The notes beneath the pieces are model-generated. The model was not told the DNA's origin. It searched no databases and worked only from the letters and a program-made list of their open reading frames with translations. From IMG/VR virus record IMGVR_UViG_2695420658_000002: a DNA stretch of 17,661 nt; one strand, 5' to 3'. The stretch is from a virus. Its lineage: Duplodnaviria; Heunggongvirae; Uroviricota; Caudoviricetes. Position 1 is the first letter of the stretch. Each line of letters starts with the position of its first letter. The position numbers and the translations under genes are program-made. Below, in pieces: positions 901 to 17,461 of this stretch.

Positions 901-929
901 CATAAACGATAAAACCGCCCGGAGGCGAT
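901..929 (-). terminator. Terminator-like hairpin plus U-rich tract in the I-J intergenic region (possible attenuator)
   Basis: Sense RNA AUCGCC-UCCG-GGCGGU (6-bp stem with one U.G pair, 4-nt loop) followed by UUUUAUCGUUUAU, then the J Shine-Dalgarno. Confidence 0.35.
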
Positions 930-949
930 TTCACATAAAACATTTTGCA

Positions 950-1621
950 TCAGCGACCAATCACCACAACCTGACCACCGTCCCCTTCGTCTGCCGTGCT
1001 GATCTCCTGAGATACCACACGTGACCCCACGCGCATTTCACCATACAGAACAGGCATAACATTGCCCTGGGCAACCATGTTATCCAGTGAGGAGAAATAG
1101 GTGTTCTGCTTACCGTTATCCGTTGTCTGTGTGCGGGGAGTTCTGGCTTTCGGTGCCAGCATCTGAGCCACACCGCCGAGCACCATACTGGCACCGAGAG
1201 AAAACAGAATGCCGGTCATACCACCGGCACCAATGGCAGCCCCCCATGCTGCAAGGGTGGCTCCGGCGGTAAAGAATGATCCGGCAATGGCGGCTGCTCC
1301 CAGGACAATCTGGAATACACCACCTGACTTGGCCCCGGCGACTCTGGGAACAATATGAATCACAGCGCCGTCAGGCAGAGCCTCATGTAACTGTGCCGTT
1401 AATCCGGACGTGCTAACATCCTGCCCGGCAATACGCACCTGATACCAGCCGTCGCTCAGCTTCTGACGAAACGCAGGGAGCTGTGTGGCCATCGCCCGGA
1501 TGGCTTCGGCACCCGTTTTCACACGAAGGTCGATGCGGCGGCCAAATCGTTGCAAATCCCCGTAAAGGCAGATGCGTGCCATGCCCGGTGACGCCAGAGG
1601 GAGTGTGTGCGTCGCTGCCAT
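950..1621 (-). CDS. I: Tail assembly protein I (ubiquitin-like N-terminal domain, Gly/Ala-rich hydrophobic middle)
   Basis: 223-aa ORF recognised as lambda gpI (MAATHTLPLASPGMARICLYGDLQRF...); 672 nt, same length as the lambda gene; ATG at 1621; overlaps K by 103 nt. Confidence 0.9.
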   Translation of the reverse strand: MAATHTLPLASPGMARICLYGDLQRFGRRIDLRVKTGAEAIRAMATQLPAFRQKLSDGWYQVRIAGQDVSTSGLTAQLHEALPDGAVIHIVPRVAGAKSGGVFQIVLGAAAIAGSFFTAGATLAAWGAAIGAGGMTGILFSLGASMVLGGVAQMLAPKARTPRTQTTDNGKQNTYFSSLDNMVAQGNVMPVLYGEMRVGSRVVSQEISTADEGDGGQVVVIGR

Positions 1622-2262
1622 TTGTCGGTATACCTCTCTCGTTTGCTCAGTTGTTCAGGAATATGGTGCAGCAGCCCGCCGTCACCGCAGTAAATGGCGG
1701 CATGATTCGGCACCGATGAACCAAAACAGCACAGCAGCACATCGCCCGGCTGCGCCGCTGACAACGGCACCTGATACAGCCCTGTGGCCTCCAGATTATC
1801 CAGATAGAGATTCTGACCGTGACGCCACCAGTCATCCTCACGATGAAAATCCGGCATCTCAATCCCCGCCAGATGGTAAGCATCCCGGAACAGCGTGTAA
1901 CAGTCCGTCACCCCGTGCTCAAAGCGCCGCCCGGTGAGATGCGGCACACAGCGGAACTTGTGAATCGCCCCCCGGCAGACCAGCCACCACGGCAAATCAC
2001 TCTGCACCTGCAGCCGCCGGTCGGCCTCACTCAGCCAGGGCAGACCACCGGGGTGGCTGTGGACCAGTGCCACAATCTCACCCTGCATCTCTGCCTGCAG
2101 CCAGTCTTCCGGCGACATACGGAAATACGCCTCCGGCTCACCGGAGATATTCACGCAGGGGAAATATCTTTCCCCCTCCGGCGTTCTTACCACGAAGCCG
2201 CACGACTCCGCTGGAGCACATCGCCGGGCGTGCGCCAGAATCGCTGATTCTGTCTCTGTCAT
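1519..2262 (-). CDS. K: Tail assembly protein K (JAB/MPN + NlpC/P60 domains); long form from the ATG 5 nt after the L stop; the reference-style start would be the internal ATG at 2118
   Basis: 247-aa ORF; HSHPGGLPWLSEAD JAMM motif, E-x2-G (PAESCGFVV) upstream, NlpC/P60-like Cys (TDCYTLF) and His (PNHAAIY). The C-terminal 199 aa correspond to lambda K as I recall its annotation. Confidence 0.8.
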   Translation of the reverse strand: MTETESAILAHARRCAPAESCGFVVRTPEGERYFPCVNISGEPEAYFRMSPEDWLQAEMQGEIVALVHSHPGGLPWLSEADRRLQVQSDLPWWLVCRGAIHKFRCVPHLTGRRFEHGVTDCYTLFRDAYHLAGIEMPDFHREDDWWRHGQNLYLDNLEATGLYQVPLSAAQPGDVLLCCFGSSVPNHAAIYCGDGGLLHHIPEQLSKRERYTDKWQRRTHSLWRHRAWHASAFTGICNDLAAASTFV

Positions 2263-2966: not shown

Positions 2967-3295
2967 CAGTTCACCACCTGTTCAAACTCTGCGCTGAACT
3001 CAACACGCAGCATACTGACCCGCGACGACCATTTTGCGCAGGTCACCTTTATCTGCCGCCACTCATAAGGCGGCGTCCACAGAAAGGCTTTCCAGCCCCC
3101 GTGCTCTTCCAGAAACGACTCCAGTACCATGGCCTCCTCACGGGGGACAGAAAGCGTCACGCTGTACGTTTTCAGGTTGGCATTCAGCCCGGCAGGCGCT
3201 CGCTGGGAATAGCCATCACCAAAGCGCACCTTTCTTACAGAAGGGGCCGAAGCCACATCCATACCGGGTTTCACTTTCCAGCGGAAGGTTTTCAT
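2966..3295 (-). CDS. M: Tail tip protein M
   Basis: 109-aa ORF recognised as lambda gpM (MKTFRWKVKPGMDVASAPSVRKVRFGDGYSQRAPAGLNANLKTYSV...); 330 nt as in lambda; 4-nt overlap with the H stop. Confidence 0.9.
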   Translation of the reverse strand: MKTFRWKVKPGMDVASAPSVRKVRFGDGYSQRAPAGLNANLKTYSVTLSVPREEAMVLESFLEEHGGWKAFLWTPPYEWRQIKVTCAKWSSRVSMLRVEFSAEFEQVVN

Positions 3296-5911
3296 CGTCC
3301 ACCTCCGGAGAACAGGCCACCATCACGCATCTGTGTCTGAATTTCATCACGGGCACCCTTGCGGGCCATGTCATACACGGCCTTCATCATCTGTGGACCT
3401 GGCAGACCATTCGTACCGTCGTTCTGAATCACCACGTGATTGTTCTGATTAAAATTAATGCCTTCAGCCCGCCGCATCTGCGCCGGACTTCCGGCACCGC
3501 CCACATAACCACCTTCCGCATAGCCGCGCATCAGCCGGTAGAGATTCCCCACGCCAATCCGGCTGGTTGCCTCCTTCGTGAAGACAAATTCACCACGGTG
3601 AACAATCCCCGCTGGCTCATATTTGCCGCCGGTTCCCGTAAATCCCCCGGTTGCAAAATGGAATTTCACCGCAGCGGCCTGAATGGCTGTACCACCTGAC
3701 GCGGATGCGCCGCCACCAACAGCCCCGCCAATGGCGCTGCCGATACTCCCGACAATCCCCACCATTGCCTGCTTAAGCAGAATTTCTGTCATCATGGACA
3801 GCACGGAGCGGGTGAAGCTGCGCCAGTTCTGTTCACTGCCGGTCAGCATCGCCGCCATATTCTGTGCAATACCATCAAAGGTCTGCGTGGCTGCACTTTT
3901 AACCTGTGACATACTGTCCGTGGCGCTCTCTTCCCACTCACTCCAGCCGGACTTCAGGCCTGCCATCCAGCTCCCGCGAAGCTGGTCTTCAGCCGCCCAG
4001 GTCTTTTTCTGCTCTGACATGACGTTATTCAGCGCCAGAGGATTATCGCCATACTGTTCCTTCAGGCGCTGTTCCGTGGCTTCCCGCGCTGCCTGCCGGT
4101 CAGTCAGCCCCCGGTTTTTCGCATCAATGGCTGCCCGTTTTGCCCGTTGCTGCTGTGCGAATTTATCCGCCTGCTGCGCCAGCGCATTCAGGTGCTCCNN
4201 NNNNNNNNNNNNNNNNNNNNNNNNNNNNNNNNNNNNNNNNNNNNNNNNNNNNNNNNNNNNNNNNNNNNNNNNNNNNNNNNNNNNNNNNNNNNNNNNNNNN
4301 NNNNNNNNNNNNNNNNNNNNNNNNNNNNNNNNNNNNNNNNNNNNNNNNNNNNNNNNNNNNNNNNNNNNNNNNNNNNNNNNNNNNNNNNNNNNNNNNNNNN
4401 NNNNNNNNNNNNNNNNNNNNNNNNNNNNNNNNNNNNNNNNNNNNNNNNNNNNNNNNNNNNNNNNNNNNNNNNNNNNNNNNNNNNNNNNNNNNNNNNNNNN
4501 NNNNNNNNNNNNNNNNNNNNNNNNNNNNNNNCTTCACGCCGGACTGTTTCGGCTTTTTCAGCGTCGCTTCATAATCCTTTTTCGCCGCCGCCATCAGCGT
4601 GTTGTAATCTGCCTGCAGGATTTTTCCGTCTTTCAGTGCCTTGTTCAGTTCTTCCTGACGGGCGGTATATTTCTCCAGCGGCGTCTGCAGCCGTTCGTAA
4701 GCCTTCTGCGCCTCTTCGGTATATTTCAGCCGTGACGCTTCGGTATCGCTCTGCTGCTGCGCATTTTTGTCCTGTTGACGCTGTTGATCTACCCTCTTTT
4801 GGGCTGCATCCCGCTCCAGGCGTTTTTTTTCACGATCATCCCAGTAACGCGCCCGTGCTTCATCGTTAACGAAATAATCATCCTTGCGCAGATTCCAGAT
4901 GTCGTCTGCTTTCTTAAACGCAGCCTCTGCCTTAATCAGCATCTCCTGCGCGGTATCAGGACGACCAATATCCAGCACCGCATCCCACATGGATTTGAAT
5001 GCACGTGCAGTCCTGTCTGCCCAGGTCTCCAGCGTGCCCATGTTCTCTTTCAGGCGGCGGGTCTGGTCATCAAACCCTTTCGTTGCGGCCTCGTTCGCCG
5101 CCTGCAATGCCCCGGCTTCATCGCCGGAACGCTGCAACTGAGCAACATACGCAATCTGCTCCGCCGTCACGTTATGGAACTGGCGTGCCATCGCCGTCAG
5201 CCCCGACGTCGGGTCTGTGGTCAGCTTCCCGAAGGCTTCAGCGACCTTGTCCACCTCCACGCCGGATGCATAGGAGAAACGCGCCACACTCTGGCTGATG
5301 GACGCAATCTGAGCCTCACCGCTTACCCCCGCCTTAACCAGTGCGCTGAGTGACTCGCTGGTCTGGTTAAACGTCAGCCCTGCCGCCTGCCCGGCTCTGG
5401 ACAGGACCAGCATACGATCTGCCGTCAGTCCCGCCTGATTACCGGAAAGGACCAGCGTTTTGTTGAAATCGGACAGGGTTGAGTTGCCCTGATACCAGGC
5501 ATACGCCAGCGCACCGGTCGCCACCGCCAGCGAGGTGGCCCCCACCATCGGCAGGGTGATCGCGCCGGCAAGCCCCCTGAACATGGGGATCATCCCGCCG
5601 AAGGAGTCCTTAACCTGACCACCCTGTTGCAGCAGGATCAGCCAGGGATTCTGCCCCCCTGCAAGCTGCGTGGCCACGTCGGTGAACTGTGCAGGCAGCA
5701 TACGCATGGCGGCTTTATACTGCCCGACGGAAATCCCCGCTTTCTGTGCAGCCAGCGCCTGTCGGCTCAGCGACTGTTCAACGACTGCCGCTGTTTTTTT
5801 CGCATCACTTTCCGTACCGGAAAAATGACGCCTGACTCTGGCCATCTGCTCGTCAAATCTGGCCGCATCCAGACTCAAATCAACGACCAGATCGCCTACC
5901 GGTTCAGCCAT
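3292..5911 (-). CDS. H: Tail tape measure protein H, interrupted by a 333-nt N run; reading frame differs across the run
   Basis: N-terminal 460 codons (5911-4532) begin MAEPVGDLVVDLSLDAARFDEQMARV...; the C-terminal segment (4197-3292) reads EHLNALAQQADKFAQQQRA...MSEQKKTWAAEDQL...GGLFSGGGR. Both are recognisable as lambda gpH. H start overlaps the T stop by 8 nt, as in lambda. Confidence 0.8.
4199..4531. other. Masked/unknown sequence (333 N) inside gene H
   Basis: Run of n characters in the sequence. Confidence 1.
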
Positions 5912-16408: not shown

Positions 16409-16977
16409 NNNNNNNNNNNNNNNNNNNNNNNNNNNNNNNNNNNNNNNNNNNNNNNNNNNNNNNNNNNNNNNNNNNNNNNNNNNNNNNNNNNNNNNNNNNN
16501 NNNNNNNNNNNNNNNNNNNNNNNNNNNNNNNNNNNNNNNNNNNNNNNNNNNNNNNNNNNNNNNNNNNNNNNNNNNNNNNNNNNNNNNNNNNNNNNNNNNN
16601 NNNNNNNNNNNNNNNNNNNNNNNNNNNNNNNNNNNNNNNNNNNNNNNNNNNNNNNNNNNNNNNNNNNNNNNNNNNNNNNNNNNNNNNNNNNNNNNNNNNN
16701 NNNNNNNNNNNNNNNNNNNNNNNNNNNNNNNNNNNNNNNNNNNNNNNNNNNNNNNNNNNNNNNNNNNNNNNNNNNNNNNNNNNNNNNNNNNNNNNNNNNN
16801 NNNNNNNNNNNNNNNNNNNNNNNNNNNNNNNNNNNNNNNNNNNNNNNNNNNNNNNNNNNNNNNNNNNNNNNNNNNNNNNNNNNNNNNNNNNNNNNNNNNN
16901 NNNNNNNNNNNNNNNNNNNNNNNNNNNNNNNNNNNNNNNNNNNNNNNNNNNNNNNNNNNNNNNNNNNNNNNNNNNNN
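16409..16977. other. Masked/unknown sequence (569 N); expected location of cosN and the cos-proximal region beyond it
   Basis: Run of n characters; by lambda spacing (Nu1 start about 190 nt from the cohesive end) cosN would lie near 16440-16465. Confidence 0.9.
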
Positions 16978-17020: not shown

Positions 17021-17461
17021 ATGGCTCAGGTTGCCATTTTTAAACAAATATTCGATAAAGTGCGAAATAATTTAAACTATCACTGGTTTTNNNNNNNNNN
17101 NNNNNNNNNNNNNNNNNNNNNNNNNNNNNNNNNNNNNNNNNNNNNNNNNNNNNNNATTTACTATTTAGCCACAGAGAATATTCATCTTGTTCTTGAAAAC
17201 GATAATACGGTTTTAATAAAAGGACAGGGTAAGGTTGTAAATGTAAGATTTTCAAAAAATAAATGCCTTATAGAAGCCACCTTAAAAGGATTCAAATCAG
17301 GAGAGTTATCATTTTACGAATACAGGAAAAATCTTGCTACAGCAGGGGTTTTCAGATGGATTACAAATATCCACGAAAACAAAAGGTATTACTATACCTT
17401 TGATAATTCATTACTCTTTACTGAGAACATACAGAACACTACACAAATATTTCCGCACTAA
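17021..17461 (+). CDS. Hypothetical protein, AT-rich moron-like cargo ORF beyond cos; possibly a DUF1398-type (YbcV/YdfO-like) prophage protein
   Basis: ATG at 17021 with GGAAGG 7 nt upstream (the track's ATG at 17006 has no Shine-Dalgarno); frame open to TAA at 17459-17461; markedly lower G+C than the structural genes; interrupted by a 65-nt N run. The family assignment is from memory of similar prophage proteins and is weak. Confidence 0.55.
17091..17155. other. Masked/unknown sequence (65 N) inside the AT-rich ORF
   Basis: Run of n characters. Confidence 1.

What the first reader, a model, noticed from the sequence alone, without database searches (positions are those of the whole stretch)
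950..2262. K (JAB + NlpC/P60) and I (ubiquitin-like domain ending in Gly-Gly) form a ubiquitin-like processing pair
K carries both a JAMM metalloprotease motif and NlpC/P60 papain-like residues (C121 in TDCYTLF, H187 in PNHAAIY). I has an N-terminal region of about 100 aa ending in AGAKSGG (Gly-Gly at codons 100-101, about 1319-1324), followed by a roughly 55-aa Gly/Ala-rich hydrophobic segment. This pairing has been noted computationally in lambda-like phages as a prokaryotic ubiquitin-like system. The two genes also overlap out of frame by 103 nt (1519-1621), so that stretch is dual-coding. All motifs are intact in this copy.
Basis: partly seen in the sequence, partly recalled or inferred. 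Interest (0 to 1): 0.5.

Follow-up and report, generated by a model that had tools for sequence, protein, structure and literature searches.

The report
Lambda tail genes K and I
This stretch is an ordinary, intact copy of the phage lambda tail-tip assembly genes K (a two-domain protease) and I (a ubiquitin-like domain fused to the tail-tip plug); their pairing was predicted in 2006, but whether K cuts I has still not been shown.

Summary
K is 1519-2262 (minus strand) and has JAB and NlpC/P60 domains. I is 950-1621 (minus strand). C121, H187, Gly100-Gly101 at 1319-1324 and the 103-nt out-of-frame overlap are all as stated.

The region is about 96% identical to lambda-like phages. It occurs in 4408 of 5426 complete E. 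coli genomes. The K-I "ubiquitin-like processing pair" idea was published by Iyer, Burroughs and Aravind in 2006, so nothing here is new.

Three refinements:
- The position homologous to the C-terminal Gly-Gly of MoaD and ubiquitin is G96-A97, not G100-G101. Across the family G96 and G101 are conserved and G100 is not.
- Published tail models of lambda and T1 are described as starting at the Gly equivalent to G101. This argues against cleavage after G101.
- The long overlap is confined to the lambda clade.

Virion structures, mass spectrometry and F-pyocin data show that only the C-terminal part of I is seen in mature particles. K-dependence of that processing remains untested.

The parts
1519..2262 (-). 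Gene K, the tail tip assembly protein K. It is 247 aa, has two peptidase domains and is not a virion component.
   Evidence: ORF. Pfam PF14464 + PF00877. About 96% nucleotide identity to K of lambda-like phages. Not detected in lambda virions by mass spectrometry (PMC10721106).
1969..2253 (-). JAB/MPN+ (JAMM) metalloprotease domain of K, aa 4-98. E19 is at 2206-2208 and H68-x-H70-x7-S78-x2-D81 at 2020-2061.
   Evidence: Pfam Prok-JAB E=5e-14. The motif was located. The best Foldseek hit is P. furiosus JAMM1 at E=2e-5, followed by Rpn11, CSN5 and AMSH. All five motif residues are conserved in 17/17 diverse phages.
1591..1932 (-). NlpC/P60 (C40, papain-like) domain of K, aa 111-224. The triad is C121 (1900-1902), H187 (1702-1704) and H199 (1666-1668).
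   Evidence: Pfam NLPC_P60 E=1.9e-12. Foldseek hits to MepS/Spr, LytE and C. difficile autolysins. C121, H187 and H199 are invariant.
950..1621 (-). Gene I, the tail tip assembly / 'insertion' / plug protein precursor, 223 aa.
   Evidence: ORF. It differs at 5 of 223 residues (about 98% identical) from lambda gpI in PDB 8iyk, 8iyl, 8k35 and 8xcg.
1331..1582 (-). MoaD/ThiS-type ubiquitin-like beta-grasp domain of I, aa 14-97.
1298..1348 (-). Conserved junction motif P92-x3-G96-[AS]97-K98-x-[G/A/Q]100-G101-h-[FL]-Q104-x3-G108, the candidate processing site.
   Evidence: Conservation was counted in 18 phage loci and 65 representatives. G96-A97 align with the C-terminal Gly-Gly of MoaD and ubiquitin.
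1154..1318 (-). Gly/Ala-rich hydrophobic segment, aa 102-156. These are helices H1 and H2, which wrap the C-terminal coiled coil of the tape-measure protein and are proposed to insert into the outer membrane.
   Evidence: Composition. Described in PMC11101478 and PMC10721106.
953..1153 (-). C-terminal plug and beta-strand region of I, aa 157-223. It is the structural part that closes the tail-tip lumen.
   Evidence: PDB 9e7m chains cover aa 133-222. Modelled residues are 135-223 and 134-222 (PMC12617516).
1519..1621 (-). K/I out-of-frame overlap of 103 nt. It encodes the K C-terminus (aa 214-247) and I aa 1-34.
   Evidence: The arrangement is the same in phage 434. In other genera the arrangement ranges from a 461-nt gap to a 58-nt overlap.

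Best explanation
This is a standard lambda-type tail-tip assembly module in an E. coli-type lambdoid prophage.

**What I is.** I is made as a precursor with three parts:
- an N-terminal MoaD/ThiS-like beta-grasp domain (aa ~14-97);
- a conserved glycine junction (G96-A97-K98-S99-G100-G101);
- the part that ends up in the tail, namely two hydrophobic helices (102-156) and a plug region (157-223). As a trimer this part closes the tip lumen and holds the C-terminus of the tape-measure protein.

**What K is.** K is a cytoplasmic, non-structural enzyme with a JAMM zinc-protease domain and a Cys-His-His NlpC/P60 domain.

**Most likely mechanism.**
1. The beta-grasp domain acts as a removable intramolecular chaperone, or steric shield, for the very hydrophobic downstream segment while I docks onto the J-L hub.
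2. The JAB domain of K then cuts I at the glycine junction, as deubiquitinases cut ubiquitin-fusion precursors.
3. The cut is most probably N-terminal to G101. The homology-based position is after G96-A97.
4. Removal of the domain allows tip maturation.

**Shown:** gene identities, domains, predicted folds, conservation of all catalytic and junction residues, synteny, and (from the literature) the absence of K and of the I N-terminal region from mature particles.

**Inferred:** that K is the protease, which of its domains cuts, the exact bond, and the chaperone or shield role.
For: **Identity**
- About 96% nucleotide identity to lambda-like phages.
- I is about 98% identical to lambda gpI.
- Gene order H-M-L-K-I-J, as in phage 434.

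**Domains and folds**
- Pfam JAB + NlpC/P60 in K and Lambda_tail_I in I.
- The K model (pLDDT 84.5) matches PfJAMM1, including its SAMP2 complex, then Rpn11, CSN5 and NlpC/P60 hydrolases.

**Coupling**
- In 17/17 diverse phages (lambda-like, HK022-like, T1-like, and phages of Burkholderia, Ralstonia, Stenotrophomonas, Acinetobacter, Mannheimia and Pseudomonas) K lies upstream of I. E19, H68, H70, S78, D81, C121, H187 and H199 are all invariant.
- Junction residues P92, G96, G101 and G108 are 88-100% conserved.
- PHROG families exist for JAB-I, K-I and I-J fusions.

**Processing (literature)**
- gpK is absent from virions. gpI is modelled only from residue 135 (PMC10721106), from 134 (PMC12617516) or from 101 (8IYK, as described in PMC11101478).
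- T1 gp34 is modelled from residue 92 of 199 (PMC11945409). That residue is the Gly aligned with lambda G101, if PDB 9l9p_A is T1 gp34.
- The only gpI peptide found in lambda virions covers 9.87% of the protein. This fits only the C-terminal 22-residue tryptic peptide 202-223.
[quoted passage not shown] Deleting the gpK homologue PA0639 gives tip-less tubes (bioRxiv 10.64898/2026.02.24.707460).

**Prior prediction:** PMC1779556.
Against: - No experiment in the papers found links K activity to I cleavage.
- The F-pyocin authors state that the mechanism of cleavage is unknown. They also report that PA0640 expressed alone in E. coli loses its N-terminal region to host proteases.
- Missing cryo-EM density can reflect disorder rather than cleavage. 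The lambda mass-spectrometry evidence is a single peptide.
- The role of the second (NlpC/P60) active site is unexplained.
- The I beta-grasp model has only moderate confidence (mean pLDDT 69), and the tail residues 95-105 are below 50.
Confidence: 0.6

Rival explanations
1. The N-terminal beta-grasp domain of I is removed, but not by the JAB domain of K. The protease would be either the papain-like NlpC/P60 domain of K or a host protease. In that case the JAB domain would bind the ubiquitin-like fold or act on another substrate.
For: - PA0640 expressed alone in E. coli loses its N-terminal region to unknown host proteases (bioRxiv 10.64898/2026.02.24.707460).
- The NlpC/P60 triad is as strictly conserved as the JAMM motif, so it must do something.
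- K has no signal peptide (sequence), so peptidoglycan is out of its reach in the producing cell.
Against: - JAMM enzymes are the class known to cut after ubiquitin-like beta-grasp domains. The best structural match of K is PfJAMM1, which has been solved bound to SAMP2.
- JAB-I fusion families exist (PMC1779556).
- Degradation of an isolated precursor by host proteases does not show that this is the natural route.
Confidence: 0.2
2. I is not cleaved in lambda. The beta-grasp domain stays attached but is flexible and therefore invisible. K would work as a chaperone or assembly factor whose protease motifs act on some other target, or on none.
For: - Three lambda cryo-EM studies report only that the N-terminal domain is 'unresolved' (PMC10721106, PMC11101478, PMC12617516).
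- The lambda mass-spectrometry evidence rests on one peptide.
Against: - In the homologous F-pyocin the N-terminal peptides are seen in precursor tips and not in mature particles.
- No solved PDB chain matched the beta-grasp model, although four deposited gpI-type sequences are full length.
- Eight catalytic residues invariant across distant phages argue for real catalysis.
- The beta-grasp fold has no hydrolase features. This speaks against the suggested cell-wall-cleaving role.
Confidence: 0.1
3. After cleavage the I beta-grasp domain is not discarded. It is ligated through its newly exposed C-terminus to a tail or host protein, with the papain-like NlpC/P60 domain of K acting as a transpeptidase. 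This would be a conjugation system that needs no E1 enzyme.
For: - The fold is closest to MoaD, SAMP and Urm1, which are carriers or modifiers activated at a C-terminal Gly.
- A second, thiol-based active site in K has no assigned role.
- Papain-fold enzymes can catalyse acyl transfer (own knowledge).
Against: - No E1- or E2-like gene is expected in this lambda late region, which has the same gene order as lambda and 434.
- No modified tail protein has been reported in the lambda or F-pyocin structures and proteomics that were read.
- The residue after G96 is Ala or Ser, not Gly, in about 92% of relatives.
Confidence: 0.04
4. K is mainly a cell-wall hydrolase (NlpC/P60 endopeptidase) used for entry or lysis, and its pairing with I is incidental.
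For: - The NlpC/P60 domain matches peptidoglycan endopeptidases such as MepS and LytE.
- Genome annotation calls K a 'C40 family peptidase'.
- The lambda enzyme that would cut peptidoglycan at entry is unidentified (PMC11101478).
Against: - K is not in virions (PMC10721106; not resolved in PMC12617516).
- K has no signal peptide or lipobox (sequence).
- K is required for tail-tip assembly, not for lysis. The F-pyocin PA0639 deletion gives tip-less tubes.
- K always carries a JAB domain.
Confidence: 0.04

Closest known systems
Phage lambda gpK and gpI (TAPK/TAPI of Iyer, Burroughs and Aravind 2006, PMC1779556)
   Same: These are the same genes. The region is about 96% identical in DNA. I differs at 5 of 223 residues, none of them in the junction. 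The domains, the gene order and the 103-nt overlap are the same.
   Different: Nothing functionally relevant differs. The old 199-aa annotation of lambda K starts at M49 and would remove helix 1 and E19 of the JAB domain. The 247-aa form here is the complete one.
F-type pyocin PA0639 (gpK homologue) and PA0640 (tip plug, gpI homologue)
   Same: The module is the same. The plug protein has an N-terminal region that is present in precursor tips and absent from mature particles. The gpK homologue is non-structural and needed for tips (bioRxiv 10.64898/2026.02.24.707460). The PDB sequence 25vf_9 aligns over the beta-grasp and the junction.
   Different: It is a tailocin, not a phage. The sequences are distant. 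The protease is not identified there either.
Archaeal JAMM1 with SAMP1/SAMP2, and bacterial JAMM enzymes acting on ThiS/MoaD-type proteins (QbsD-QbsE, Mec+-CysO; own knowledge)
   Same: A JAMM metalloprotease is paired with a MoaD/ThiS-type beta-grasp protein that ends in a glycine. PfJAMM1 is the best structural match of K. SAMP1 and MoaD are the best matches of I.
   Different: Those systems serve sulfur transfer or protein conjugation and have an E1-like partner. Here the beta-grasp is the N-terminal part of a structural precursor, no E1 is present, the position after the conserved Gly is Ala or Ser, and the protease carries an extra NlpC/P60 domain.
Eukaryotic ubiquitin-fusion precursors (ubiquitin fused to ribosomal proteins) cut by deubiquitinases (own knowledge)
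   Same: An N-terminal ubiquitin-fold domain is translated in one piece with an assembly-prone partner and removed by a dedicated protease. This is the likely logic of the system.
   Different: The relationship is an analogy only. The beta-grasp subfamily, the protease context and the cargo all differ.
Plug domain of phage T5 baseplate hub protein pb3
   Same: It occupies the same place in the tip lumen and closes the tube in the same way as the C-terminal part of gpI (PMC10721106).
   Different: In T5 the plug is an insertion within the hub protein. No separate I protein, beta-grasp domain or K protease is involved.

Membership tests
JAB/MPN+ (JAMM) metalloproteases | Motif E-x(n)-H-[ST]-H-x7-S-x2-D | tested here: met
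   E19, H68-S-H70, S78 and D81 were located. They are invariant in 17/17 diverse phage K proteins.
JAB/MPN+ (JAMM) metalloproteases | Profile match above the curated cut-off, and an MPN fold | tested here: met
   PF14464 scores 52.6 bits against a cut-off of 25. The best Foldseek hit is PfJAMM1 at E=2e-5, followed by Rpn11, CSN5 and AMSH.
JAB/MPN+ (JAMM) metalloproteases | Zinc-dependent cleavage after the C-terminal Gly of a beta-grasp protein | not testable with these tools
   This needs biochemistry. No report was found in the papers searched.
NlpC/P60 (C40) papain-like peptidases | Cys-His-His/polar catalytic triad in the conserved order, and a profile match | tested here: met
   C121, H187 and H199. 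PF00877 scores 47.5 bits against a cut-off of 23. Structural matches to MepS, LytE and Acd autolysins.
NlpC/P60 (C40) papain-like peptidases | Access to peptidoglycan through a signal peptide, a lipobox or a virion location | tested here: not met
   The N-terminus MTETESAILAHARR is acidic and has no signal sequence. K is absent from virions (PMC10721106). K is a member by fold and triad, but probably not a cell-wall enzyme.
ThiS/MoaD/ubiquitin-like beta-grasp domains | Beta-grasp fold | tested here: met
ThiS/MoaD/ubiquitin-like beta-grasp domains | Conserved Gly at the C-terminal tail of the fold | tested here: met
   G96 is conserved in 63/65 and 17/18 relatives. It aligns with the penultimate Gly of MoaD and ubiquitin. 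The next residue is Ala or Ser rather than Gly.
Ubiquitin-like conjugation or sulfur-carrier systems (E1-dependent) | A free C-terminal Gly-Gly and an E1-like adenylating enzyme encoded alongside | tested here: not met
   The glycines are internal in a 223-aa precursor. The neighbours are the lambda morphogenesis genes H, M, L and J, with no E1-like gene. It should therefore not be filed as a conjugation system.
Lambda_tail_I (PF06805) / tail tip assembly protein I | Profile match, and the C-terminal plug region seen in solved lambda tails | tested here: met
   PF06805 scores 95.1 bits against a cut-off of 23.8. The match to PDB 8iyk_I has E=1.9e-139.

The most novel reading that the evidence does not exclude
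K is a dual maturation protease of the tail tip. One active site removes the beta-grasp domain from I. The other cuts the tape-measure protein gpH to gpH*, a cleavage whose enzyme and site are still unknown (PMC12617516).

In this window the Gly-rich stretch of gpH reads ...GGGASASGG|TAIQAAAVKF. A cut there would release a 132-residue, 14.0-kDa C-terminal piece, which matches the reported ~14-kDa fragment that stays bound to I in the tip.

A still bolder variant is that the freed beta-grasp domain is ligated to another protein by the papain-like domain.
Probability: 0.06. Interest if true: 0.7.

Novelty: already known. Interest (0 to 1): 0.22.

Why it matters
For this window it matters little. 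It is one more intact copy of a gene pair found in about 80% of complete E. coli genomes and described in lambda decades ago.

The underlying biology is still of interest. A virus-encoded deubiquitinase-like enzyme paired with a ubiquitin-fold domain would be a clear bacterial-virus example of ubiquitin-style precursor processing used as an assembly checkpoint. Twenty years after the prediction, the cleaving enzyme and the cut site remain unproven.

The refinement made here sharpens the experiment that should be done. G96-A97 is the ubiquitin-equivalent terminus. Published lambda and T1 models are described as starting at the Gly equivalent to G101.

Tried and rejected
1. **Searching for related loci with diverse I alignments**. 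It was replaced by a tblastn search of phage records and 16 fetched loci.

3. **Internal translation start at M134** as the source of the virion form, which two maps show from residue 134/135. Rejected for four reasons:
   - That Met is not conserved in relatives.
   - No good ribosome-binding site precedes it.
   - 8IYK is described as resolved from residue 101.
   - The F-pyocin data show a precursor-product relation.

5. **A test of whether tape-measure C-termini carry a motif like the I junction**.
   - Lambda, HK022 and ENT39118 share G-T-A-I-Q after a Gly/Ser-rich run.
   - T1-like phages lack it, and it does not resemble the I junction of the same phage.
   - The result is inconclusive. 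Only the 14.0-kDa size coincidence remains.

6. **Hit P0282** (2783 aa, 23 repeats matching I 10-63). It is a repetitive, unrelated sequence that scores through summed weak matches and was discarded.

7. **The overlap as a conserved dual-coding device.** Rejected, because it is confined to the lambda clade.
Full report
**What is there**

The window is the late (morphogenesis) region of a lambdoid prophage, read in reverse. The large minus-strand ORFs run from the terminase genes down through H, M, L, K and I to the start of J. This is the same order as in phage 434 and lambda.

The finding covers two genes:
- K, 1519-2262, minus strand, 247 aa.
- I, 950-1621, minus strand, 223 aa.

The 1313-nt stretch is 95.7-96.6% identical to lambda-like phages. 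It is present in 4408 of 5426 complete E. coli genomes, with a median of two copies per genome. The I protein differs from lambda gpI, as deposited in PDB 8iyk, at five positions, none of them near the junction.

**Check of the observation**

- C121 in TDCYTLF.
- H187 in PNHAAIY.
- AGAKSGG, with G100-G101 at 1319-1324.
- The 103-nt overlap 1519-1621, with the two frames offset.
- A segment (102-156) of 55 residues, of which 25 are Gly or Ala and none is charged.
- The JAMM motif, complete as E19, H68-S-H70, S78 and D81.

Pfam assigns Prok-JAB (E=5e-14) and NLPC_P60 (E=1.9e-12) to K, and Lambda_tail_I (E=3.4e-27, aa 14-97) to I. All three are above the curated cut-offs.

An AlphaFold2 model of I residues 1-105 was built on 33 homologues.
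- The core is of moderate confidence: 74 residues at pLDDT 70-90.
- The secondary structure has a beta-beta-alpha ... beta order.
- Residues 1-11 and 95-105 are disordered.

The K model (pLDDT 84.5) matches two groups:
- For the first domain: Pyrococcus JAMM1, including its complex with the ubiquitin-like SAMP2, then Rpn11, CSN5 and AMSH.
- For the second domain: MepS/Spr, LytE and clostridial autolysins.

**How general the pair is**

A full HMMER scan of 1.84 billion representative proteins finds 3154 clusters related to I. tblastn finds I in 1732 phage records. I fetched 16 loci from distant phages.

- In the 15 distant loci where K lay within the fetched stretch, as in phage 434 and this window (17 in all), K lies upstream of I. 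E19, H68, H70, S78, D81, C121, H187 and H199 are conserved in 17 of 17.
- PHROG families exist for JAB-I, K-I and I-J fusions. This agrees with the fusions noted in 2006.
- The long overlap is not general. It is 103 nt only in this window and phage 434.
- Elsewhere the arrangement ranges from a 58-nt overlap to a 461-nt gap. Extra genes sit between K and I in HK022, Mannheimia and Bordetella phages.
- The figure of 103 nt also depends on I starting at M1. Distant homologues start at the equivalent of M14.

**The junction**

Conservation was counted across 65 representatives and 18 phage loci.

| Position | 65 representatives | 18 phage loci |
|---|---|---|
| P92 | 64/65 | 18/18 |
| G96 | 63/65 | 17/18 |
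| position 97 = Ala or Ser | 60/65 | 15/18 |
| K98 | 31/65 | 16/18 |
| G100 | 26/65 | 12/18 |
| G101 | 57/65 | 17/18 |
| G108 | 65/65 | 18/18 |

A profile of the I beta-grasp was aligned to E. coli MoaD and to ubiquitin.
- G96 falls on the penultimate Gly of MoaD.
- H89-I-V91 fall on H68-L-V70 of ubiquitin.
- G96-A97 therefore correspond to the C-terminal Gly-Gly of both proteins.
- The spacing D-G-x10-G-G of MoaD and ThiS is reproduced as D84-G85-x10-G96-A97.

**What the literature adds**

*Prior recognition.* The JAMM motif of lambda K was listed in 2003 with function unknown (PMC300881). In 2006 Iyer, Burroughs and Aravind described the TAPI ubiquitin-like domain with a conserved C-terminal glycine and the flanking TAPK (JAB + NlpC/P60). 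They proposed that the JAB releases the ubiquitin-like domain by cutting at that glycine (PMC1779556).

*Structures of I-type proteins.* Cryo-EM has since shown that the C-terminal part of gpI is a structural trimer. It plugs the tip lumen and holds the C-terminal coiled coil of gpH.

| Particle | First to last modelled residue | Source |
|---|---|---|
| Lambda | 135-223 | PMC10721106; |
| Ur-lambda | 134-222 | PMC12617516 |
| Lambda, 8IYK | 'from position 101 onward' | as described in PMC11101478 |
| Phage T1 gp34 | 92-163 of 199 | PMC11945409 |

In the alignment of PDB 9l9p_A, a 199-aa 'putative tail assembly protein', residue 92 is the Gly equivalent to lambda G101. I take this chain to be T1 gp34 from its length and its junction sequence. 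If both descriptions are accurate, that Gly is retained in the mature protein. This fits a cut after G96-A97, or between G100 and G101, better than a cut after G101.

*Mass spectrometry.* gpK was not detected in virions. gpI was detected by one peptide covering 9.87% of the protein. Only the C-terminal tryptic 22-mer 202-223 gives that figure.

[quoted passage not shown] Deleting the gpK homologue gives tip-less tubes. The authors call the cleavage mechanism unknown, and they note that host proteases trim the isolated protein (bioRxiv 10.64898/2026.02.24.707460).

I found no paper that tests K as the protease.

**Interpretation**

The best-supported reading is a precursor-processing system.
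- A MoaD-like beta-grasp domain escorts or shields the very hydrophobic H1-H2 segment of I.
- The cytoplasmic, non-structural K removes it once I is seated on the J-L hub.

I put about 0.6 on the JAB domain of K being the responsible protease. The main alternatives are cleavage by the papain-like domain or by host enzymes (0.2), and no cleavage in lambda (0.1). Use of the freed domain as a modifier, and a cell-wall role for K, are unlikely (about 0.04 each). K has no export signal and is absent from particles.

**Side test**

The enzyme that cuts gpH to gpH* is unknown (PMC12617516), so I compared tape-measure C-termini from six phages.
- A cut after ...SASGG in this window would release 132 residues of 14.0 kDa, matching the reported fragment.
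- No motif resembling the I junction is shared across phages.
- This remains a speculation.

**Verdict**

Novelty: already known. Interest is low for the scan, with a modest residual value. The question is experimentally open, and the likely cut site is better placed at or before G101 than after it.

Noticed in passing
window 2119-2262 (K codons 1-48): Many database entries, and the old lambda annotation, start K at the internal Met49, giving 199 aa with only PF00877 (for example P0179-P0181, thousands of members each). That start removes helix 1 and the catalytic E19 of the JAB domain. The 247-aa ORF, which starts 5 nt after the L stop codon, is the complete protein.
   Followed up: partly
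window 910-929 (minus strand), between I (stop at 950-952) and J (ATG at 887-889): A GC-rich hairpin followed by TTTTAT (ATCGCCTCCGGGCGGTTTTAT) lies in the 60-nt I-J spacer. The equivalent site is annotated as a terminator in phage 434. The simple terminator scan did not list it.
   Followed up: partly
window 3292-4020 (minus strand, C-terminal part of H), around ...GGGASASGGTAIQAAAVKF: The Gly-rich stretch of the tape-measure protein ends 132 residues (14.0 kDa) before the C-terminus. This matches the size of the piece removed in gpH to gpH*. The G-T-A-I-Q motif after it is shared with HK022 and ENT39118 but not with T1-like phages.
   Followed up: partly
window 4199-4531, 16409-16977, 17091-17155: Three runs of N (967 bases in all) are present. 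The first interrupts gene H, so its ORF is split in ORF lists and its length cannot be checked.
   Followed up: no
window 1208-1231 (minus strand, I codons ~131-138): A terminator-like hairpin plus a T-rich run lies inside the I coding sequence (GGTGCCGGTGGTATGACCGGCATT CTGTTTTCTC). It sits at the codons where two cryo-EM models of gpI begin (134/135). It is probably chance in a Gly-rich region; three such sites were found in the scanned region against 1.5 expected.
   Followed up: no
protein P0282: A 2783-aa repetitive protein scored E=1e-39 against I through 23 weak repeats of a 'FGDFENLSRRMDLKVFAD'-like unit. It is unrelated to phage tails and is a summed-score artefact.
   Followed up: yes
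loci L008 (HK022), L002 (Mannheimia phage), L006 (Bordetella phage), L010 (Stenotrophomonas CUB19): The K-I-J block is a frequent insertion point. Small extra genes or terminators sit between K and I in L008, L002 and L006. An HNH homing endonuclease sits between I and J in CUB19.
   Followed up: no
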